Position numbers and translations under genes: made by a program. Of a stretch of DNA of 64,000 nt, positions 11,340 through 62,631 are shown in pieces. Where the stretch lies: sequence record OL960581; one strand, written 5' to 3'. The notes beneath the pieces were generated by a model that saw only the letters and a program-made list of their open reading frames with translations, was not told the DNA's origin and did not search any database. The stretch is from Escherichia phage vB_EcoM_SA20RB. Positions within the stretch are counted from its first letter, which is position 1. Each line of letters opens with the position of its first letter.

Positions 11340-11942
11340 TTATAGATTAAATTCTTCAAAATCGAGAGTATAGATAGTGTATGTTGAATACTTTTTATAC
11401 TCATATCTATCTGCAATTCTAAATACACTTCCAGCCGGTATCATTACTTCTTGTTCATCCGAAACTAATTCCATATTACGATAGCGATGGCTATCTGGAA
11501 ATTTAAAGCTTGGATTATATTCTTTACAGCGTAGAGCTTTTATAGCATACTCCTGGAAATTGAATACCATAGGAGCTTTGAATTCAAAAATAACCTGTGT
11601 GTTATATTCTAAACCAGAAGCAAAATGTAGAGCTATATTTTTATCATATGAAGCTGATACGACTTTATCAAATGTAATAATATCAATTCCTTGATTTAAT
11701 ACTTGCTTAGTCTCAGCTGGAACACCTCTCCAAAGAGGTTTATCGTTTGGTTCCAAACGAGATTTGATTATTTCATTTAACCAAGAGTGGTCGTCTGGCT
11801 TATTAGTAATACAATGAATTAAAAGTTCAATTTCGGATAAATTAAATCCTTCAGAAAGTAATTCTTCACGAATAGAAGCACGCACCGATGCATCCATTGA
11901 TTTGATTTTAAAATCTTTTAATTGCATTGCTGAATATTTCAT
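11340..11942 (-). CDS. modA: ADP-ribosyltransferase ModA
   Basis: 200 aa, the T4 ModA length; paralogous to the next ORF (W/YRG..., EQE..IP motifs typical of R-S-E ARTs). Confidence 0.8.
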   Translation of the reverse strand: MKYSAMQLKDFKIKSMDASVRASIREELLSEGFNLSEIELLIHCITNKPDDHSWLNEIIKSRLEPNDKPLWRGVPAETKQVLNQGIDIITFDKVVSASYDKNIALHFASGLEYNTQVIFEFKAPMVFNFQEYAIKALRCKEYNPSFKFPDSHRYRNMELVSDEQEVMIPAGSVFRIADRYEYKKYSTYTIYTLDFEEFNL

Positions 11943-12562
11943 TCAACTACCTCAATATCATACACTTTAAATGTTCCAAATGAATCGTGTAATTTTTCTT
12001 TTGAAATAGAAGTTATTTTATACTTTCCAATTGGAATCATCCATTCTTGTTCACGCACAATCATCATTAAGTTATCAGTACGTTCTGAATCTAATCCATC
12101 AGTATCTTCATATGTATACTTAAACTCAGTATTAGGAGAAGAAAGTATAATATCGCTGATATGGTCAGAATAATTAAAAGCTTTATCAGTTTTTAAGCGA
12201 AATATTATTTCAGTGAAATATTCAGCATAAGAAAAACCGCACGCTGTGTGCAAACTAGTAGTAAATGAATCTACTCTGTTCGTTGAAAACACTTCTCCAA
12301 CTTGTAAATCTTTAATGAGTTCTTTTGTCGATTTTGATATACCACGATATAACTGATAAGGCGATTTAGTTAAATGCTTTTTAATGATTTTATTTAACTG
12401 TCTGTGAAGAGCTTCATTCTTTTTGGCTTCCATACATTGCCAAAGAATTGACTGTTCAAAGTCAGTAAATTTTTCACAGACCTTTTTATACATATCATAT
12501 TGAAAATCAACGCTTTCAGCTTTTATAGATAACTGTTCAACATCTGCAAGATTAATAATCAT
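11939..12562 (-). CDS. modB: ADP-ribosyltransferase ModB
   Basis: Track ORF 211 aa; starting at MIINLADVEQ gives 207 aa, the T4 ModB length; LYRGIS and REQEWMIP motifs. Confidence 0.8.
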   Translation of the reverse strand: MIINLADVEQLSIKAESVDFQYDMYKKVCEKFTDFEQSILWQCMEAKKNEALHRQLNKIIKKHLTKSPYQLYRGISKSTKELIKDLQVGEVFSTNRVDSFTTSLHTACGFSYAEYFTEIIFRLKTDKAFNYSDHISDIILSSPNTEFKYTYEDTDGLDSERTDNLMMIVREQEWMIPIGKYKITSISKEKLHDSFGTFKVYDIEVVE

Positions 12563-15403: not shown

Positions 15404-15921
15404 TAATAACCTCGGTCTTGACGTGCGAAATTTTCTGCATTTTTCAAATAATAAAGTTTAAAGATTTCTTCAGCAGTAAGACCAAGACCTTGGAACATAT
15501 TCAGAACGAAATGAAGAATATCAATCATTTCAAATTTAATTTCCAACTGGTCTTGCGGTGACAAATCAGTAATCAGAGTTTCACGGCGTTCACCATGTTG
15601 CGACTTCCAAGGTTTCCATACAGCAGATGCGTCTTTTTCACCATTACTCATACCACCAAGAGAAGTCAGAAGTTCACGGAATTCATCATCAATATAGTCT
15701 TTCTGATTACGTAGCCAATCAACAACTTCACCGGCAGTAGCCAAATCATCAGGATGACGGTTATATTCAGGTTTATCTTTAGCTAAACGAACCTGCAGAG
15801 ATTTCTGCATATCAAGCATAACCTGCAGCGGGTCTTTTTCATCACCGAGAATATCCCAGTATTCATTTTGAGCTTTATCAGCGCCTTCGATCAGTTGTGA
15901 ACATTCGTTAAAGTATGCCAT
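15403..15921 (-). CDS. 56: dCTPase-dUTPase (dCTP pyrophosphatase)
   Basis: From MAYFNECSQLIEGADKAQNEYWDILGDEKDPLQVMLDMQ (172 aa), near-identical to recalled T4 gp56; the longer track ORF runs across its own promoter. Confidence 0.9.
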   Translation of the reverse strand: MAYFNECSQLIEGADKAQNEYWDILGDEKDPLQVMLDMQKSLQVRLAKDKPEYNRHPDDLATAGEVVDWLRNQKDYIDDEFRELLTSLGGMSNGEKDASAVWKPWKSQHGERRETLITDLSPQDQLEIKFEMIDILHFVLNMFQGLGLTAEEIFKLYYLKNAENFARQDRGY

Positions 15922-15955
15922 TATTTTTCCTTTCAATTCATGGGTTAGTAGATTA

Positions 15956-15979
15956 ATTATACAATAAATATATAAAGCA
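15956..15979 (-). promoter_or_regulatory. MotA-dependent middle promoter for gene 56
   Basis: Minus strand aTTGCTTTA, 11 nt, TATAAT. Confidence 0.7.
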
Positions 15980-15992
15980 ATAAGGAGGACAT

Positions 15993-16193
15993 ATGGTACA
16001 AAAATTAATGGCACTTGTTAATGCCATCAAAGGTAATAAAAAACGTATAGCTTTTACTATTTCTGCTATGGTAGGAATTTTACTCTGGAACTTTATTTTA
16101 TCACCAATTGCAATTGCGCATGGTGTTAATATTCCAGTAGTTACTCTTGATACATTCGTAGATTTAGCATTTGCTCTAGTTGGGCTAATTTAA
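15993..16193 (+). CDS. candidate 66-aa two-TM membrane protein (only plus-strand coding candidate)
   Basis: TAAGGAGG 5 nt before the ATG; hydrophobic segments IAFTISAMVGILLWNFILSPIAIA and VDLAFALVGLI; stop overlaps the primase stop. Confidence 0.4.
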   Translation: MVQKLMALVNAIKGNKKRIAFTISAMVGILLWNFILSPIAIAHGVNIPVVTLDTFVDLAFALVGLI

Positions 16194-17220: not shown

Positions 17221-17385
17221 TTACTCTTCTTTTTCTTTAGATTCCTCTTTTTTCTTTTTAGGAATCTGTTCAGGACCTTTATTTACTACAGCACCTGACG
17301 TTGTTCCAGTAGAGATATTTTCAGGATTACCACCTGAATCTCCAGCTACCATATCTTCTTTAATAAATTCTTTAAACGTTTTCAT
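17221..17385 (-). CDS. 54-aa disordered peptide with capsid-targeting-like N-terminus (61.1 slot)
   Basis: Hand translation MKTFKEFIKEDMVAGDSGGNPENISTGTTSGAVVNKGPEQIPKKKKEESKEKEE; GAGG RBS; ends 2 nt before the primase ATG. Confidence 0.5.
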   Translation of the reverse strand: MKTFKEFIKEDMVAGDSGGNPENISTGTTSGAVVNKGPEQIPKKKKEESKEKEE

Positions 17386-17397
17386 ATTAGCCTCTAA

Positions 17398-17691
17398 TTA
17401 TTCACCTACCACTTCAGCGATGATATTTTTATTATTAAAGTTTTTATCGCAATACAGAACATAATTATACTGCATTACACCACCAGACTTAAGCTGTTTT
17501 TGCACTTCGGCTTTCATTTCAGGACGATCACGCTCAACGATATTCATAATATCCGCTTCAATTTGAGTTTCAACCTCAGTCTGATCTGCAGTCATAGACC
17601 ATTCACACAAATCTTTGTCATAACCCGCCATAGCAGGCTGAGCAGTACAAGAAGCCAAAGCAAAAATTGCAGCAAAAACAAATTTTTTCAT
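17398..17691 (-). CDS. sp: Spackle periplasmic superinfection-exclusion protein (inhibitor of gp5 lysozyme)
   Basis: 97 aa with signal peptide MKKFVFAAIFALASCTAQPAMAG; matches T4 sp (61.3) in size, slot and recalled sequence. Confidence 0.78.
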   Translation of the reverse strand: MKKFVFAAIFALASCTAQPAMAGYDKDLCEWSMTADQTEVETQIEADIMNIVERDRPEMKAEVQKQLKSGGVMQYNYVLYCDKNFNNKNIIAEVVGE

Positions 17692-56715: not shown

Positions 56716-57005
56716 TCAGTCTCCAATTTAATGTTCATAATTCTAGCGTATGATTGTGCCATCTCCGCGCCTCGCTCTATACATTCAAAATCGGAAGAGC
56801 ACGGGTCATTTTTATAGGTCGTTCGCATAAAACTATAGAACTGTTCAGATGATTCTACGCTTTTATTTTCAAAAAGCATATAAACATGTCTAATGCCAGA
56901 TTCCATAAATTTATCAAAATGAGGATCGACATTTGCTTCAATCGGTGGAGATAAAGCAAACGCTAATCCTAGCATGGCAAATAGTGCCGTTGCTTTTAAG
57001 GCCAT
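56712..57005 (-). CDS. rI: RI lysis-inhibition antiholin
   Basis: 97 aa MALKATALFAMLGLAFALSPPIEANVDPHFDKFMESGIRHVYMLFENKSVESSEQFYSF... Confidence 0.92.
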   Translation of the reverse strand: MALKATALFAMLGLAFALSPPIEANVDPHFDKFMESGIRHVYMLFENKSVESSEQFYSFMRTTYKNDPCSSDFECIERGAEMAQSYARIMNIKLETE

Positions 57006-57017
57006 AAAGGCCTCCTA

Positions 57018-57230
57018 TCATTTTTGTCCTGTATTTACTTTATGCCGATGCACGGCCTTAACTTTATCAAGGTATTTTTCAAAATTTCGCAATCTAGTAT
57101 AGTCTGCCGGAGATTGGTTGAGTGATACTTCTCGACGCAAAGCTGAAATGATATTTCCAACTTCCCTACGAATTTCATCTAATTGAAGAACAGTAAGATT
57201 GCGAAGTTGCTTTTCAGTTAATTGTAGCAT
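57018..57230 (-). CDS. rI.1: rI.1-slot small protein
   Basis: 70-aa ORF with TATAAATA upstream. Confidence 0.5.
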
Positions 57231-57255
57231 ATATACCCCTTTAGTTAGATAAACC

Positions 57256-57263
57256 TATTTATA
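57256..57263 (-). promoter_or_regulatory. late promoter TATAAATA upstream of rI.1/rI
   Basis: Exact TATAAATA on the minus strand about 25 nt upstream of the 57230 start. Confidence 0.65.
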
Positions 57264-57272
57264 ACTTTTGCA

Positions 57273-57854
57273 CTAACCGAGCTTTTTAGTTAATTCATTC
57301 CAATGTTTTCTGCACAAAGAAACATAAATTTCATCACCAATACAGATTTGATTACCTTCTTTAACTGGTGTTCCATCTTCCATTAATCGAGCTGTCATAA
57401 TAGCTTTTTTACCACAATGACAAACTGCTTTTAGTTCAATAAGTTTATCTGCAATCGCCAAAAGTTCTTTAGAACCTTCAAATAATTTTCCAGCGAAATC
57501 AGTCCTTAGTCCATAAGCCATAACAGGAACATTATATGTATCAACAATTCGGCTTAATTGATGCACCTGTTCAGTTTTTAAAAACTGAGCTTCATCTACA
57601 AATACGCAATGAATATCTTTTTGTGCTTCAGCCCATTTATAGAACTCAAAAATATCCATATCATCCGTAATAATATTCGCTTCCTGTTTAATTCCAATGC
57701 GAGAAACGACTTCACAAACAGAATCGCGAGTATCAATAGCAGGTTTAAGAACTAATACACCCATTCCGCGTTCTTTATAATTATGCGCAGCAGTTAAAAG
57801 AGAAGCAGATTTTCCAGCATTCATTGCTGCATAAGTAAAAATTAAACTCGCCAT
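57273..57854 (-). CDS. tk: thymidine kinase
   Basis: 193 aa; AAMNAGKS P-loop; C-terminal zinc-site cysteines. Confidence 0.93.
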   Translation of the reverse strand: MASLIFTYAAMNAGKSASLLTAAHNYKERGMGVLVLKPAIDTRDSVCEVVSRIGIKQEANIITDDMDIFEFYKWAEAQKDIHCVFVDEAQFLKTEQVHQLSRIVDTYNVPVMAYGLRTDFAGKLFEGSKELLAIADKLIELKAVCHCGKKAIMTARLMEDGTPVKEGNQICIGDEIYVSLCRKHWNELTKKLG

Positions 57855-57863
57855 ATCACCTTC

Positions 57864-58049
57864 TTAAAGCGTATTCACATAAGCTATTAATTCGTTTTCT
57901 TTCTTATCAAACCGGTCAGCAAATTCTTCTTGCTGTTCGGGAGATAGCGGGCCGTATTCATCATAAAAGGTGTTTGCTTCTGTATGCTCATCTAGAAGTT
58001 CATGGATAAGCTCAAACAATTTATCTTTTTGTTCTTTACTCAGACTCAT
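57864..58049 (-). CDS. small acidic protein (tk.1 slot)
   Basis: 61-aa ORF. Confidence 0.45.
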   Translation of the reverse strand: MSLSKEQKDKLFELIHELLDEHTEANTFYDEYGPLSPEQQEEFADRFDKKENELIAYVNTL

Positions 58050-58219
58050 ATATTAATTTCCAGGAGTTTTAAAATAATTCGCTTTTGCTTAAATATTTCC
58101 ATAGTTAAATGGTCAGTATCTTTTTGACCGATTCCAATAGCAAAACCTTTATTAACAGCGAGTTCAATTAAATTATCAAGCTCACGTAACACTTCATATT
58201 GTAACTCAAAACTATTCAT
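58046..58219 (-). CDS. 57-aa peptide (below track cutoff; tk.2 slot)
   Basis: Hand translation MNSFELQYEVLRELDNLIELAVNKGFAIGIGQKDTDHLTMEIFKQKRIILKLLEINI; ATGA overlaps at both ends. Confidence 0.4.
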   Translation of the reverse strand: MNSFELQYEVLRELDNLIELAVNKGFAIGIGQKDTDHLTMEIFKQKRIILKLLEINI

Positions 58220-58443
58220 TTTGGTTTACCTTCTTTAACGAAATCGGGATAAGGATAAAATCCTGAATAAAATCCTTCACCTTTATGATTGATGCATCCT
58301 TTATTAGAACAATAGCACCAATAGTCGAAATCACAAGCCATTTCATCATTACATAAAGCAAAAACAACCGGCCATTTACACTTTTCACAATGGGCATTTT
58401 TAAGAATACTAGTTTGGCTCATAACCATGTAACCTTTAAGCAA
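58216..58443 (-). CDS. Cys-rich small protein
   Basis: 75 aa with CEKC...C...CYCSNKGC pattern. Confidence 0.45.
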   Translation of the reverse strand: MLKGYMVMSQTSILKNAHCEKCKWPVVFALCNDEMACDFDYWCYCSNKGCINHKGEGFYSGFYPYPDFVKEGKPK

Positions 58444-58631
58444 TATTCTTCTACATGTTGTTTACGACCTTTCCTATCAATAAAGGTATATTCAACAAAT
58501 GTTCCAATATAGTCTTTATCTACATCATGAGGACTATTAATTGGGCATTTAGTACGGCAAATGCGTTCCCATTGACGAATAATTTCTGCTTTGTTTTTAG
58601 GATCAAACGGATGCGGGTAATGTACTTTCAT
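58419..58631 (-). CDS. hypothetical small protein
   Basis: 70-aa ORF. Confidence 0.45.
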   Translation of the reverse strand: MKVHYPHPFDPKNKAEIIRQWERICRTKCPINSPHDVDKDYIGTFVEYTFIDRKGRKQHVEEYCLKVTWL

Positions 58632-59082
58632 AATCCACCACTATTAAATCAATATCAGGAGTAAACATGTCGATTAATTTAGAAACCTTATCCCAATCAC
58701 CGCCAGCAATACCACAACCTATGCGTGGAATGTAAATTACTGGTTTAAACAAAAGGGTCTCTGCCTGTAGATTTAATTCTATCATGCAGTTTACTAAAGC
58801 ACCATAATCAAGATTAGGACCCGGTTCGTATTGCGTATACAGGTTATAGCATATACCAAATCCCGTAGGACTATGTTTAAAAACAATAGACATATCGCCT
58901 AATTTATCGCGAGAACCGTACTCGGTAGTAGTTTTATCTATTTCTAAAATTTTAGGATAGGCCCTCGCTAATTGACCCGCTACACCTGAACCCATAGTAT
59001 GAAAGCAGTTGCACCCGTGCGCAATAATATTACCTTGAAGAAATAGGGCGACAATATCGCCCTTGATATATTTTACAATCAT
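58603..59082 (-). CDS. macrodomain protein (TARG1/OARD1-like ADP-ribose binding/hydrolase)
   Basis: 159 aa; motifs IAHGCNCFHTMGSGVAGQL and IPRIGCGIAGGDW. Confidence 0.65.
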   Translation of the reverse strand: MIVKYIKGDIVALFLQGNIIAHGCNCFHTMGSGVAGQLARAYPKILEIDKTTTEYGSRDKLGDMSIVFKHSPTGFGICYNLYTQYEPGPNLDYGALVNCMIELNLQAETLLFKPVIYIPRIGCGIAGGDWDKVSKLIDMFTPDIDLIVVDYESTLPASV

Positions 59083-59426
59083 CTAGTACTCAATCCTCGA
59101 TTATAAGAATCTACCAAACGGTCAACCATTGAATGACAAGCGGCTTTATCTTTCTCCTCCGCAACTGAACATTCTAAGGTATTCCACTTTTTAGCATATC
59201 GTTTTAACAATGTATCATTTTTATATCTACTTGATTTATCTCTTTCTCCGTCTTTATATGCATATATTAATTTCTGCGCAAATTCAGCTTGGCATGCTTT
59301 ATTTTTCCCACAATAATCTGCCGCAGTGCGATTTACATATTCTCTAATTTCAGTATATGATGTATCTGCTGACGCAGAAGCAGAAAATGAAATTAATCCT
59401 ATACATAAAACCAAAATTTTAGTCAT
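59079..59426 (-). CDS. vs: Vs (valyl-tRNA synthetase modifier) slot, secreted-type N-terminus
   Basis: 115 aa, the T4 Vs length as recalled; signal-like MTKILVLCIGLISFSASASA. Confidence 0.5.
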   Translation of the reverse strand: MTKILVLCIGLISFSASASADTSYTEIREYVNRTAADYCGKNKACQAEFAQKLIYAYKDGERDKSSRYKNDTLLKRYAKKWNTLECSVAEEKDKAACHSMVDRLVDSYNRGLSTR

Positions 59427-59964
59427 TTACTATTTCCAAAAGTTTATTATTTTTAAGGTAATTAGCCTTTTCTAGGACTTCAGAAGCATATTTAGAACCT
59501 GCTTTAACATTCCATCCCGAATTATAAGAGGATATTGCTTTTCTTATATCACCCTTATGTATATTTAACCAATAAGAAAGTTCAATGTACGCCCAGGAAG
59601 CTGAATTGGATCGTTTATTCAACATTCTTTTTATTTCGGCATCGGTCATATTATAACCAAGTTCCTTAACTCTTGCTCGCATAGTAGGCAAATAATTTTG
59701 GAACATTCCGTAGGCGTGATGCTTTGGTTTAGATTTTAAATTAACTCCGGCAGAGCTTTCTTGCCATAAAATAGCAGCCATTATATGACCCAATCCGCTC
59801 TTGTGGATGTTTTTGTGTGTTTTATATTTTCCATCCTTAGAAAATTGTTCCCCGAATTGATATGCGTAGCGCATGTTATCGAGTTGGACATTACTGAAAG
59901 TATGCTCGGAGCTATGTGCCATCATTGAAATGGCCAATAGACCAGCGAGTAGTGCTTTTCTCAT
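59419..59964 (-). CDS. vs.1: secreted lytic transglycosylase-like protein (vs.1 slot)
   Basis: 181 aa; signal peptide; ILWQESSAG catalytic-Glu motif of the SLT family. Confidence 0.6.
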   Translation of the reverse strand: MRKALLAGLLAISMMAHSSEHTFSNVQLDNMRYAYQFGEQFSKDGKYKTHKNIHKSGLGHIMAAILWQESSAGVNLKSKPKHHAYGMFQNYLPTMRARVKELGYNMTDAEIKRMLNKRSNSASWAYIELSYWLNIHKGDIRKAISSYNSGWNVKAGSKYASEVLEKANYLKNNKLLEIVND

Positions 59965-59971
59965 GCTTACC

Positions 59972-60433
59972 TCATTGAGTTTTAATTACGGCTTTAGAAG
60001 CCTTTCCTGGTAAACGACGACTGTTGATAATTGCCATCCTACATTGAAGTGACGGGTCTTTGAACTTCGCGTTAGGTTTACAAACTGTAAATCCAAGCCA
60101 AAGATTTCCATCTGTGATTTCTAAACGTCCAGGACGATATTCAACCCCATCAATAAAATCCTCGTCAATGTCAGGACGCGGAGGCATACTCAGGAATTCA
60201 TTAACTTCTAAAACATGGTCTTTTATTTTGTGGAATAATTCAAAAACATATGTCTCATCAATCTCCCGTTGAATTGCACGATCAAGAAGATGTTGAGAAT
60301 ATTTTAGATGAAACGATGAGACCCCTGCTGCTTTTGATGCCTCACGAATCTCATTGTTAATTTGACGAAACTCCGACTCAAAGTGACGACGAAGTTTATT
60401 TCGACGGATAAAAACTTCTGTATTGATAGTCAT
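59972..60433 (-). CDS. regB: RegB endoribonuclease
   Basis: 153 aa MTINTEVFIRRNKLRRHFESEFRQINNEIREASKAAGVSSFHLKYSQHLLDRAIQ. Confidence 0.93.
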   Translation of the reverse strand: MTINTEVFIRRNKLRRHFESEFRQINNEIREASKAAGVSSFHLKYSQHLLDRAIQREIDETYVFELFHKIKDHVLEVNEFLSMPPRPDIDEDFIDGVEYRPGRLEITDGNLWLGFTVCKPNAKFKDPSLQCRMAIINSRRLPGKASKAVIKTQ

Positions 60434-60460
60434 GTTATTCTCCTCTTAACTGATAGAAAA

Positions 60461-60490
60461 ATTATACCACAGTCAAGAGGAAAAGTAAAC
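60461..60490 (-). promoter_or_regulatory. early promoter upstream of regB
   Basis: GTTTAC, 18 nt, TATAAT. Confidence 0.65.
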
Positions 60491-60492
60491 AA

Positions 60493-60771
60493 TTATTCTT
60501 TAAATCTAATCAATTTATTCATAGACTTTGTAACTTCTGCACGAACCTCATGTAGGTTTTTAAGCTGTTCAAGACGCTGCTCATAGTAAGCAATTTCATC
60601 TTCTTCGAGACAGTCCTGTGAATCTTCTTTAAGATAACGTGCATAGTCCTGGAAAGCTTTACGGACTACTTCCTGGAAGTCATCAAGACTTTGAATTTTC
60701 TTAGGAGCAACAGATACACGACGAGGGGCAGTATAATACTCATAACCAAACCCTGCGCTTAATTGGGCCAT
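60493..60771 (-). CDS. hypothetical protein (vs.3 slot)
   Basis: Trimmed to [13 protein letters not shown]; TAATG overlap with upstream ORF. Confidence 0.45.
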
Positions 60772-61037
60772 TAATATTTTTCCTCTGGTTGGAACACAGC
60801 ACGACAAGCCCACATACTGGCTTCTTTGAGTTTCGTTTTAGCAATAGTTAACTGATCGAGACTTTCAGCATAATTCTTCGCGAATTCACAGTCTTCACAA
60901 TTATTTAGTGCTTCCCAGAATTCATCATACAAAGCATCAAAGATAAGTCCTAAACGAACTTCAGCGTCTTTGATAGCATTCACTTTACCGATTTTCTCTT
61001 CAGTATGTGGTTTATAACCTTTAATGTCTTCAATCAT
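60771..61037 (-). CDS. vs.4: vs.4-slot protein (possible Acb2-type cyclic-oligonucleotide sponge)
   Basis: 88-aa helical ORF, second ORF after regB; assigned by position only. Confidence 0.45.
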
Positions 61038-61251
61038 ATTTTACTTCCTCACCAGTACCTAAATCATATTCAACTAAACGAATAGGCTCATGAATGCCAT
61101 AACCCTGAACAGAAATTTCTGTCGTAGGATAAATTCCATCAATATCACCCATATTCCATGCTTCATTAAATTGCTGTTCGCCTGAATTACTAAACCACTC
61201 GGCGAAAGCATTTAGCACATCTTTAGAACCTTCAATAATTATCTTTGCCAT
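61030..61251 (-). CDS. hypothetical small acidic protein (vs.5 slot)
   Basis: 73-aa ORF. Confidence 0.45.
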   Translation of the reverse strand: MAKIIIEGSKDVLNAFAEWFSNSGEQQFNEAWNMGDIDGIYPTTEISVQGYGIHEPIRLVEYDLGTGEEVKYD

Positions 61252-61613
61252 TACAAACTCTCAGTAAAGGTACGAGCGATAACGTCGCGCTGCTGTTCCG
61301 GAGTTAGAGAGTTAAAGCGAACTGCATAACCGGATACACGGATGGTCAGCTGCGGATATTTTTCCGGATGCTTAACTGCATCTTCCAGAGTTTCACGACG
61401 CAGAACGTTAACGTTCAGGTGTTGACCACCTTCAATTTTAACTGTAGGCTGTTGCTCAATTTCAATTTCACGGGCATGCAAACCATAGAAAATTTCTGGG
61501 TCTACAAAAGAGTCCTCTTTAAAGGTTTTAGAGACAATAATTCGTGCTTGAATACCATCTTCAAAATAAATAGTACCTTTATGTGTGCCTTCAAGAATTT
61601 GATATGCTTTCAT
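61251..61613 (-). CDS. vs.6: autonomous glycyl-radical cofactor (GrcA/YfiD-like)
   Basis: 120 aa ending ...[36 protein letters not shown], near-identical to the E. coli YfiD/PflB glycyl-radical C-terminus. Confidence 0.8.
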
Positions 61614-61620
61614 ATAAACC

Positions 61621-61848
61621 TCAATTAGAAAATAAATTTATCCAAGATTGTTCTTTAATTAAAAATGGCTCAGAATCATATGCCATTAAACTCTGTGTGA
61701 TTAGTCCTTTAAAAGGCCCATCAATAAATTCCATGGTAAAATATGGAATTTTATTCATTAGCCGTGCATTAGGAGCCGTGCACAAAACTCTGCATCCTTT
61801 GAATACGCCTTTTTGTAATTTGTATTGCTTAGGATAAAATTCGCTCAA
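61621..61848 (-). CDS. hypothetical small protein (vs.7 slot)
   Basis: 75-aa ORF. Confidence 0.45.
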
Positions 61849-61948
61849 AATGTTATTTTTTTTGCCAAAATTTCAAAATGATTCACCAATTTATTTTTAA
61901 TAGTTTTTGGTGAAAAATAAAGATATTCGAAAAGCTGAGTGTCTGTCA

Positions 61949-62491
61949 TCATTGCATTCCGATTACGAAAAACTGCGGACGAGTAATACCACCAATGCAG
62001 CATTTACTATTGCAGCAGTGTTGCACAGTTTCAATATGAATATCGTAAATTTTATCCATATCAGGAGATTTAACAGGCTCATCGATTATATACAAAATTC
62101 GAGAAAGCGATAAACCTCTGAACTTGCTACCTCTATTACCAACAAAACTACGGACAGAATCAGTAAATAAACGGAATCGAATATCATCGCTAGAATAACG
62201 AGAAAATTCTTTTTTAATGCGGCCCGCAGAAATTTTAGCGTAAGCTGAAGTATTAGAAAGAACAATAACTGTTCCACCATCATACAACCAATTAGCGGCA
62301 AAATTAGTTACTGCAGTTGATTTACCAGATTGTCTGCCACCATCTAAACGAAGTGTACAATATTCTTTAAATAAATGCGACGAATCAGGTACATAAAATC
62401 CACTATTACAAATTTCTTCTACTCTAGCATCAGAATGGTGTGTAAAAGCATTCATCAGGGATAGATAAGGACCAGTTAAAAATGTTCTCAT
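61949..62491 (-). CDS. P-loop NTPase (vs.8 slot)
   Basis: 180 aa; Walker A GGRQSGKST; Walker B ILYIIDEP. Confidence 0.55.
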   Translation of the reverse strand: MRTFLTGPYLSLMNAFTHHSDARVEEICNSGFYVPDSSHLFKEYCTLRLDGGRQSGKSTAVTNFAANWLYDGGTVIVLSNTSAYAKISAGRIKKEFSRYSSDDIRFRLFTDSVRSFVGNRGSKFRGLSLSRILYIIDEPVKSPDMDKIYDIHIETVQHCCNSKCCIGGITRPQFFVIGMQ

Positions 62492-62631
62492 TTCTTCTCT
62501 CTAAGTTTGGGCCATTCCATGGCGCATGAATTGTCCATTTCTGTATTTACCCATTACCGCACTTGGGCTCGACCTTATTACAGGTTGGCGGGAATCCCTC
62601 ACAGAATCATGAGGTCCAGGTTGTTCCCATA

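What the first reader, a model, noticed from the sequence alone, without database searches (positions are those of the whole stretch)
58603..59082. TARG1/DarG-like macrodomain in a phage that also encodes the ModA/ModB ADP-ribosyltransferases
The 159-aa ORF has the two signature loops of the TARG1/OARD1 macrodomain subgroup: IAHGCNCFHTMGSGVAGQL and IPRIGCGIAGGDW (compare PRIGCGLDRLxW in human TARG1). DarG antitoxins, which reverse DarT DNA ADP-ribosylation, belong to the same subgroup. In a phage the protein could erase host DarT-type or other ART-based defence marks. It could also edit the phage's own Alt/ModA/ModB (including RNAylation) modifications. It is embedded in a chain of overlapping small ORFs downstream of tk.
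Basis: partly seen in the sequence, partly recalled or inferred. Interest (0 to 1): 0.52.

Follow-up and report, generated by a model that had tools for sequence, protein, structure and literature searches.

The report
T4-type phage anti-DarT2 macrodomain (tk.4/adfM)
This is gene tk.4 of a T4-like phage, a small ADP-ribose-removing macrodomain; the T4 version was recently shown to let the phage escape the bacterial DarTG2 defence, so the finding is correct but already explained.

Summary

Two refinements came out of this work. First, the TARG1 K84/DarG K80 catalytic lysine is an invariant glutamine here (Q84, 122 of 122 homologues), and TARG1 D125 is alanine. This matches SCO6735, a proven thymidine-ADPr DNA hydrolase whose Gln85 is essential. 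It is not a DarG equivalog (27.7 bits against a cut-off of 250; no DarT-binding domain). Second, this allele is only 58% identical to T4 Tk.4, although the flanking genes are 93-100% identical. The tested protein is therefore a diverged ortholog.

Reversal of the phage's own Alt/ModA/ModB marks is unlikely, because those are arginine N-glycosides. No Tk.4 protein has yet been assayed biochemically.

The parts
58603..59082 (-). tk.4/adfM ORF, 159 aa, a single macrodomain
58969..59025 (-). ADP-ribose-binding loop 1 (residues 20-38, IAHGCNCFHTMGSGVAGQL). Contains H22 and N25, which align with SCO6735 H24/N27 and DarG N22.
   Evidence: Alignment. H22, G23, N25, C26, G33 and A35 are present in every homologue that spans these columns (120-122 of 122). 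The roles of N27 and H24 in SCO6735 are described in PMC9411070.
58828..58845 (-). NLYTQY motif (residues 80-85). Q84 (codon 58831-58833) occupies the column of TARG1 K84, DarG K80 and SCO6735 Q85.
   Evidence: MAFFT reference alignment and hhalign of the family profile against Mtb DarG and SCO6735. Q84 is invariant in 122 of 122 sequences. SCO6735 Q85A is inactive on DNA and protein substrates.
58693..58731 (-). Phosphate-binding loop 2 (residues 118-130, IPRIGCGIAGGDW). A126 sits in the TARG1 D125 column.
   Evidence: P119, G122, G124 and W130 are present in every homologue that spans these columns.
59079..59426 (-). vs (valyl-tRNA synthetase modifier), the gene immediately upstream. Its TGA stop overlaps the tk.4 ATG (ATGA).
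   Evidence: 100% identical to T4 Vs. PHROG 1256.
58419..58631 (-). tk.3, the gene immediately downstream. Overlaps the tk.4 3' end by 29 nt.
   Evidence: 93% identical to T4 Tk.3. PHROG 2008.
60461..60489 (-). Best sigma-70-like promoter match on the coding strand, just upstream of regB. Candidate early promoter for the regB-vs.1-vs-tk.4 unit (inferred only).
   Evidence: TTTACT-17-TATAAT with an extended TG, 10 of 12 matches. The scan as a whole is not above chance (18 sites found, 22 expected).
11340..12562 (-). modA (11340-11942) and modB (11939-12562), the ADP-ribosyltransferases named in the finding's title. Context only.
   Evidence: tblastn gives 97.5% and 96.6% identity to T4 ModA and ModB. 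ORFs listed.

Best explanation
The ORF is the tk.4 (adfM) gene of a T4-like phage. It encodes a stand-alone ALC1/TARG1-class macrodomain that works as an orphan, antitoxin-like counter-defence enzyme.

Proposed mechanism: on infection, the host DarTG2 system releases DarT2, which ADP-ribosylates thymidine in TNTC motifs of single-stranded phage DNA and blocks replication. Tk.4 is made from the regB-vs.1-vs-tk.4 transcription unit. It binds the ADP-ribose through loops 20-38 and 118-130 and hydrolyses the thymine-ribose N-glycosidic bond, restoring normal DNA. Catalysis most likely follows the SCO6735 mechanism rather than the lysine mechanism of DarG/TARG1: an invariant Gln (Q84), positioned by Asn (N25), orients the distal ribose for attack by an activated water.

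Status of each step. Shown for the T4 ortholog: the gene is genetically required on DarTG2 hosts. Shown here: fold, class, active-site residue pattern, synteny and orthology. Inferred: enzymatic activity of any Tk.4 protein, the Gln-based mechanism, and equivalence of this 58%-identical allele to the T4 protein.
For: Orthology: the gene occupies the same slot between vs (100% identical to T4) and tk.3 (93%) as T4 tk.4, with 58% identity over the full length.

Genetics in T4: tk.4 was the single significant HIDEN-SEQ hit on a DarTG2 host, and a clean knockout became DarTG2-sensitive; the gene was named adfM (bioRxiv 10.1101/2025.11.20.689424).

Active site: Q84 is invariant in 122 of 122 homologues, and N25, H22, G122 and G124 are present in all homologues that span those columns. 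Q84 aligns with SCO6735 Q85 and with DarG K80. SCO6735 cleaves dT-ADPr on DNA, protects against DarT in vivo, and its Q85A mutant is dead (PMC9411070).

Profile similarity to SCO6735 (E=3e-16) exceeds that to Mtb DarG (E=2e-12).

Precedent: phage PhiKZ gp104, a different macrodomain lineage, removes DarT2 ADPr from ssDNA in vitro (PMC13309987), and T4 AdfN (a NADAR) does the same for DarT1.

The window allele fits the family consensus in loop 2 (GCGIAGG) better than the genetically validated T4 allele does (GAGIGKG).
Against: No Tk.4 protein has been assayed biochemically; the preprint only infers hydrolysis. The tested T4 protein is 42% different from this one. The protein lacks the extended lysine-bearing mobile loop that helps SCO6735 bind DNA, and it is acidic (pI 5.0). 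It scores far below the DarG family thresholds. SCO6735 Q85A also inhibits DarT by binding alone, so non-catalytic neutralisation is not excluded.
Confidence: 0.75

Rival explanations
1. Tk.4 neutralises DarT2 mainly by binding and inhibiting the toxin stoichiometrically, not by hydrolysing DNA-ADPr.
For: Catalytically dead SCO6735 Q85A, DarG K80A and TARG1 K84A all inhibit DarT in vitro, and SCO6735 does so most strongly. The T4 evidence is purely genetic.
Against: The whole ADP-ribose-binding and catalytic residue set (H22, N25, Q84, G122, G124) is conserved in all homologues spanning those columns, from distant phages and bacteria. That pattern is expected for an enzyme and not for a toxin-specific binder. 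The protein also lacks the dedicated DarT-binding C-terminal domain of DarG (159 aa against a model of about 338 positions).
Confidence: 0.08
2. This allele's main substrate is another nucleic-acid ADP-ribose mark, for example uracil-ADPr on RNA or the product of a different DarT-like or ART toxin. Under this reading the two deeply diverged tk.4 alleles differ in specificity.
For: TARG1, DarG and SCO6735 all also remove uracil-linked ADPr from ssRNA (PMC13036486). The tk.4 body is a divergence island, 33-63% nucleotide identity to T4 inside flanks that are 97-100% identical. Both alleles are common: 312 phage records for the window type and 224 for the T4 type at 90% identity or more.
Against: The differences between the alleles fall outside the three active-site segments, which are nearly identical. 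Cassette-like mosaicism is ordinary in this region; the tk.1-tk.3 interval is also rearranged. T-even phages remain sensitive to the mRNA adenine ADP-ribosylase CmdT, so at least that mark is not countered.
Confidence: 0.1
3. It is a small-molecule enzyme of the Poa1p type, an ADP-ribose-1''-phosphate phosphatase or O-acyl-ADP-ribose deacylase. This is what the database label 'phosphatase' suggests.
Against: The label derives from the domain's historical name, not from an assay. The only phenotype known for the gene is specific to DarTG2. From general knowledge, T4's RNA repair pathway (Pnkp/Rnl1) does not generate Appr1p.
Confidence: 0.05
4. It reverses or edits the phage's own Alt/ModA/ModB ADP-ribosylation or RNAylation of host proteins.
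For: modA and modB are in the same window. In general, a writer-eraser pairing is attractive.
Against: ModB (and ModA/Alt) products are arginine N-glycosides. They are removed by ARH1 and resist treatments that cleave O-linked marks (PMC10468400; PMC8120803). TARG1-like macrodomains are documented on Asp/Glu esters, OAADPr, phosphate ends and thymine/uracil, not on arginine. tk.4 is roughly 46 kb from modA/modB and showed a fitness effect specifically with DarTG2.
Confidence: 0.02

Closest known systems
T4 Tk.4 = AdfM (anti-DarT factor Macrodomain), NP_049723; bioRxiv 10.1101/2025.11.20.689424
   Same: Same gene slot (vs | tk.4 | tk.3), same length class (159 and 155 aa), 58% identity end to end, and the same invariant residues, including N25 and Q84.
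   Different: 42% of residues differ, although the flanking genes are 93-100% identical. Loop 2 reads GCGIAGG here and GAGIGKG in T4. The anti-DarTG2 phenotype has been tested only for the T4 allele.
Streptomyces coelicolor SCO6735 (PDB 5e3b) and Bacteroides BT1257 (2afc/2fg1): Gln-type ALC1-like macrodomains
   Different: Only 26-27% identity. Tk.4 lacks the 5-7-residue longer mobile loop carrying K89/K94, which contributes to DNA binding in SCO6735. One is cellular and DNA-damage-induced, the other is a phage gene.
DarG (DarG2) antitoxin macrodomain, Mtb and Thermus (PDB 5m3i, 5m31)
   Different: Catalytic Lys80 is replaced by Gln. There is no C-terminal DarT-binding domain and no linked darT gene. 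It scores 27.5-27.7 bits on the DarG models, against 266 bits for Mtb DarG and an NCBIfam cut-off of 250.
PhiKZ gp104, also named 'AdfM' (Cell Rep 2026, PMC13309987)
   Same: A phage-encoded stand-alone macrodomain that counters DarTG2. For gp104, in vitro removal of ADPr from ssDNA has been shown.
   Different: It belongs to a different lineage. gp104 is DarG-like with the Lys motif (FPTKDNW) and scores 133 bits on the DarG HMM. BLASTP against the window protein gives only 23 bits. The shared name therefore covers two independent recruitments.
Human TARG1/OARD1 (PDB 4j5r)
   Same: Same class, similar size and the PRIGCG loop. It is the top Foldseek hit (E=8e-10). TARG1 also removes thymine- and uracil-linked ADPr.
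   Different: The K84/D125 catalytic dyad is Q84/A126 here. Identity is about 22%.

Membership tests
Macrodomain superfamily (Pfam PF01661) | Profile match above the curated threshold | tested here: met
   32 bits against a gathering score of 22, covering profile positions 2-117 of 118.
Macrodomain superfamily (Pfam PF01661) | Three-layer alpha/beta/alpha macro fold | tested here: met
ALC1-like / TARG1-like macrodomain class | Nearest structural and sequence neighbours are TARG1, DarG, Poa1p, SCO6735/BT1257 and ALC1, clearly separated from the MacroD, PARG and viral macro classes | tested here: met
TARG1 proper | Lys84/Asp125 catalytic dyad | tested here: not met
   The two columns are Gln84 and Ala126 in the window protein, and Gln and Gly in T4.
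DarG antitoxin (DarTG2) | Catalytic Lys80 in the FPTKKHW motif | tested here: not met
   The column is Gln in 122 of 122 Tk.4-family sequences.
DarG antitoxin (DarTG2) | C-terminal DarT-binding domain (protein of about 330-340 aa) and a score above the equivalog cut-off | tested here: not met
   The protein is 159 aa and matches only positions 2-142 of the 338-position model. NF048014 gives 27.7 bits against a cut-off of 250. The PADLOC DarG model gives 27.5 bits, against 266 for Mtb DarG.
DarG antitoxin (DarTG2) | Adjacent darT toxin gene | tested here: not met
   The neighbours are vs and tk.3. A bacterial homologue (P0094) is also stand-alone.
SCO6735/BT1257 Gln-type subclass | Gln at the catalytic column, with Asn and His in loop 1 and a Gly-rich loop 2 | tested here: met
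   Q84, N25, H22 and G122/G124/G127/G128 align with SCO6735 Q85, N27, H24 and the loop-2 glycines that include G128.
SCO6735/BT1257 Gln-type subclass | Extended mobile loop carrying DNA-binding lysines (K89, K94) | tested here: not met
   Tk.4 has the short loop, like TARG1 and DarG; the reference alignment shows a 6-7-residue gap.
AdfM of T-even phages (T4 tk.4 ortholog group) | Syntenic position between vs and tk.3, with full-length homology to T4 Tk.4 | tested here: met
   58% identity over 155 aa, E=1e-70.
AdfM of T-even phages (T4 tk.4 ortholog group) | Required for plating on DarTG2 hosts; removes ADPr from thymidine in ssDNA | not testable with these tools
   The genetics exist only for the T4 allele. 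No biochemistry has been published for any Tk.4.

The most novel reading that the evidence does not exclude
The two common tk.4 alleles of Tequatroviruses are 58% identical in protein and sit as a cassette between near-identical flanks. The most novel reading is that they are not functionally equivalent: they have diverged under pressure from different DarT2 variants or other nucleic-acid ADP-ribosylating toxins, and so differ in linkage or toxin specificity. A linked point is that T-even AdfM was recruited from stand-alone Gln-type 'genome-protector' macrodomains (SCO6735/BT1257-like), not from the DarG2 antitoxin as PhiKZ AdfM apparently was.
Probability: 0.15. Interest if true: 0.45.

Novelty: already known. 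Interest (0 to 1): 0.2.

Why it matters
That function, however, was published for T4 in November 2025 (adfM, anti-DarTG2), and macrodomains are known to occur in about 41% of myoviruses. What remains of practical value is threefold. The enzyme's chemistry is probably SCO6735-like (Gln) rather than DarG-like (Lys). The name AdfM now covers two unrelated macrodomain lineages. And roughly half of sequenced Tequatroviruses carry this untested, 58%-identical allele, so extending the T4 phenotype to them is an inference that a simple allele swap could check.

Tried and rejected
1. DarG membership. The PADLOC and NCBIfam DarG models match only weakly (27.5 and 27.7 bits; NCBIfam cut-off 250). It was rejected as a DarG equivalog.

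2. DarT partner. I looked for one next to a bacterial homologue (P0094, Pelagimonas, on a 1.6-Mb contig) and found none.

3. Promoter and terminator scan of 57000-62500. The number of sites is not above the shuffled expectation (18 found, 22 expected). Only the site upstream of regB is worth mentioning.

4. GC composition. The tk.4 divergence island (0.38-0.39) is not clearly distinct from regional variation of 0.31-0.43, so composition gives no evidence of foreign origin.

6. The LeRoux 2022 DarTG paper (PMC9250638) is not held in the library, so DarTG2 host-range data for T-even phages come only from later papers.

7. CmdTAC as a target was rejected, because T-even phages, which carry tk.4, are strongly restricted by it.

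Only the linear distribution was assessed.

Full report
OBSERVATION. The ORF exists as described, but on the minus strand: 58603..59082, ATG start, 159 aa. The two quoted loops are residues 20-38 and 118-130. The comparison with human TARG1 (MPRIGCGLDRLQW) is accurate; I verified the TARG1 sequence against PDB 2lgr/2l8r/4j5q. The ORF is tightly packed with its neighbours. Its ATG overlaps the TGA of the upstream gene (ATGA), and its last 29 nt overlap the next ORF. Because all these genes are read from high to low coordinates, the ORF lies upstream of tk in the transcription unit, not downstream. modA and modB are in the window at 11340-11942 and 11939-12562, 97% identical to T4.

WHAT THE WINDOW IS. 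The 2-kb region around the ORF is 97-98% identical to many Tequatrovirus genomes, including CrRp10, Shfl2, HY01 and PE37. Comparison with annotated T4 (NC_000866) gives the gene order rI.-1, rI, rI.1, tk, tk.1-3, tk.4, vs, vs.1, regB, vs.3 and onward. The ORF is tk.4. RefSeq labels it 'phosphatase; contains A1pp phosphatase motif', and other records use 'macro domain protein', 'RNase III inhibitor' or 'Poa1p-like'.

ACTIVE SITE. I aligned the window protein and T4 Tk.4 with sequences recovered or verified from PDB alignments: SCO6735 and BT1257, TARG1, and Mtb and Taq DarG. At the column of the catalytic lysine (TARG1 K84, DarG K80), both phage proteins have Gln, as do SCO6735, BT1257 and ALC1. 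At the TARG1 D125 column the window protein has Ala and T4 has Gly. Profile-profile alignment gives the same register: NLYTQ aligns with NMIGQ in SCO6735 and with NFPTK in DarG. The family scores higher against SCO6735 (E=3.4e-16) than against Mtb DarG (E=2.3e-12). Q84 is invariant in all 122 sequences examined. H22, G23, N25, C26, N80, Y82, G122 and G124 are conserved in every homologue that spans those columns. The literature makes this pattern meaningful. SCO6735 lacks both TARG1 catalytic residues yet cleaves thymidine-linked ADPr from DNA and protects S. coelicolor from DarT. Its Q85A mutant is completely inactive, and N27 (N25 here) positions Q85 (PMC9411070). Tk.4 differs from SCO6735 in lacking the longer mobile loop with K89/K94. 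It is therefore a short-loop, Gln-type member of the class.

IS IT A DarG? No. It scores 27.5 bits on the PADLOC DarG model, against 266 for the Mtb DarG macrodomain, 133 for PhiKZ gp104, 36 for T4 Tk.4 and 34.5 for SCO6735. On the NCBIfam DarG equivalog it scores 27.7 bits against a cut-off of 250. It has no DarT-binding C-terminal domain and no darT neighbour. A bacterial homologue (P0094) is likewise stand-alone. It works like a DarG macrodomain but is not a member of that family.

FUNCTION: ALREADY PUBLISHED FOR THE T4 ORTHOLOG. The HIDEN-SEQ preprint (bioRxiv 10.1101/2025.11.20.689424, November 2025) infected a DarTG2-expressing host with a T4 transposon library. It found tk.4 as the single significant hit, showed that a clean knockout is sensitised to DarTG2, and named the gene adfM. 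Hydrolysis of DNA-ADPr is stated there as likely, not shown. That preprint does not mention SCO6735, TARG1 or the Gln substitution. Independently, a Cell Reports 2026 paper gave the same name, AdfM, to PhiKZ gp104 and showed in vitro removal of DarT2 ADPr from ssDNA (PMC13309987). gp104 carries the DarG-type Lys motif (FPTKDNW) and is barely alignable to the window protein by BLASTP (23 bits). The two 'AdfM' proteins are thus separate lineages of the class. T4 also carries the NADAR enzyme AdfN (gene 30.3) against DarTG1 (PMC11825919). Tk.4 protein has been detected in T2-infected cells by proteomics (bioRxiv 10.64898/2026.06.19.733364).

THIS ALLELE IS NOT THE T4 ALLELE. The window protein is only 58% identical to T4 Tk.4. 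By contrast, Vs is 100%, Vs.1 99.4%, RegB 99.3%, Tk 99% and Tk.3 93% identical. Nucleotide identity to T4 is 97-100% through vs and 73-90% in the first ~130 nt of tk.4. It falls to 33-63% over most of 58631-58950 (one 30-nt bin reaches 80%) and returns to 77-97% in tk.3. The gene body is therefore a swapped cassette. In GenBank phages the window-type allele (90% identity or more) occurs in 312 records and the T4-type in 224, plus 159 records at 80-90%. The differences lie in the 62-79 hairpin, the 104-115 region and the C-terminal helix and strand. The three active-site segments are almost unchanged. In loop 2 the window allele (GCGIAGG) matches the family consensus better than the validated T4 allele (GAGIGKG). 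I therefore infer the same activity, but it is an inference.

RIVALS. (a) Pure binding inhibition of DarT2 is possible, since dead SCO6735 inhibits DarT. It is disfavoured by deep conservation of the catalytic residues. (b) A different nucleic-acid mark could be the target: class members also cleave U-ADPr on RNA. T-even phages remain sensitive to CmdT, so that mark at least is not countered. (c) A Poa1p-type small-molecule phosphatase or deacylase activity is suggested only by the inherited label. (d) Erasing the phage's own Alt/ModA/ModB marks is unlikely. Those marks are Arg N-glycosides removed by ARH1, a linkage not documented for this macrodomain class, and the tk.4 phenotype was specific to DarTG2.

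VERDICT. The biology is already known at the level of the T4 ortholog, so interest is low. The residual open points are the lack of any biochemistry for Tk.4, the probable Gln-type mechanism, the dual use of the name AdfM, and the untested 58%-identical allele.

Noticed in passing
window 58631-58950 (body of tk.4) compared with flanks 58423-58631 and 59070-59700: tk.4 is a sharp divergence island relative to T4. Nucleotide identity is 33-63% over most of the island, with one 30-nt bin at 80%, between flanks of 77-100%. This indicates cassette-like allele exchange. Both alleles are common in GenBank Tequatroviruses: 312 records for the window type and 224 for the T4 type at 90% protein identity or more.
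   Followed up: partly
window 17224-17691 (61.1 | sp junction) and 15921-16193 (56 | 61 interval): This phage lacks T4 gene 61.2 (adfA, the first described anti-DarT1 factor) and T4 dam at their syntenic positions. 61.1 abuts sp, and only about 270 nt separate gene 56 from gene 61. There are no tblastn or blastn hits to either gene anywhere in the window.
   Followed up: partly
window 58216-58443 (-): There is an extra Cys-rich 70-75-aa ORF (PHROG 2306, function unknown) between tk.2 and tk.3 that T4 does not have. The whole tk.1-tk.2 interval is rearranged: the window ORF at 57864-58049 matches T4 Tk.2 at 54%, and T4 Tk.1 has no counterpart.
   Followed up: partly
window 59045-59063 (-), 19 nt inside the tk.4 ORF: A GC-rich 8-bp hairpin, GGGCGATATTGTCGCCC, is followed by a T-rich tract and looks terminator-like. 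It is conserved in T4, and one GenBank record (OL631480) annotates a 'terminator' under the tk.4 match. It might attenuate read-through from vs into tk.4 or stabilise the mRNA.
   Followed up: partly
literature; PhiKZ gp104 compared with window 58603-59082: The name AdfM has been given independently to two different macrodomain lineages. T4 Tk.4 is Gln-type and scores 36 bits on the DarG HMM. PhiKZ gp104 is Lys-type and scores 133 bits. The two are only marginally alignable by BLASTP, at 23 bits.
   Followed up: yes
window 59419-59964 (-), vs.1: Vs.1 (181 aa, predicted N-terminal signal-like segment) gives weak PHROG matches to lytic tail and transglycosylase-type proteins (E=8e-5). Some GenBank records annotate it as an SLT-domain protein.
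   Followed up: no
window 61030-61251 (-): The ORF at the vs.5 position (73 aa) shares only an 18-residue stretch with T4 Vs.5 (58 aa), while its neighbours vs.4 and vs.6 are 98-99% identical. This is another small mosaic patch.
   Followed up: no
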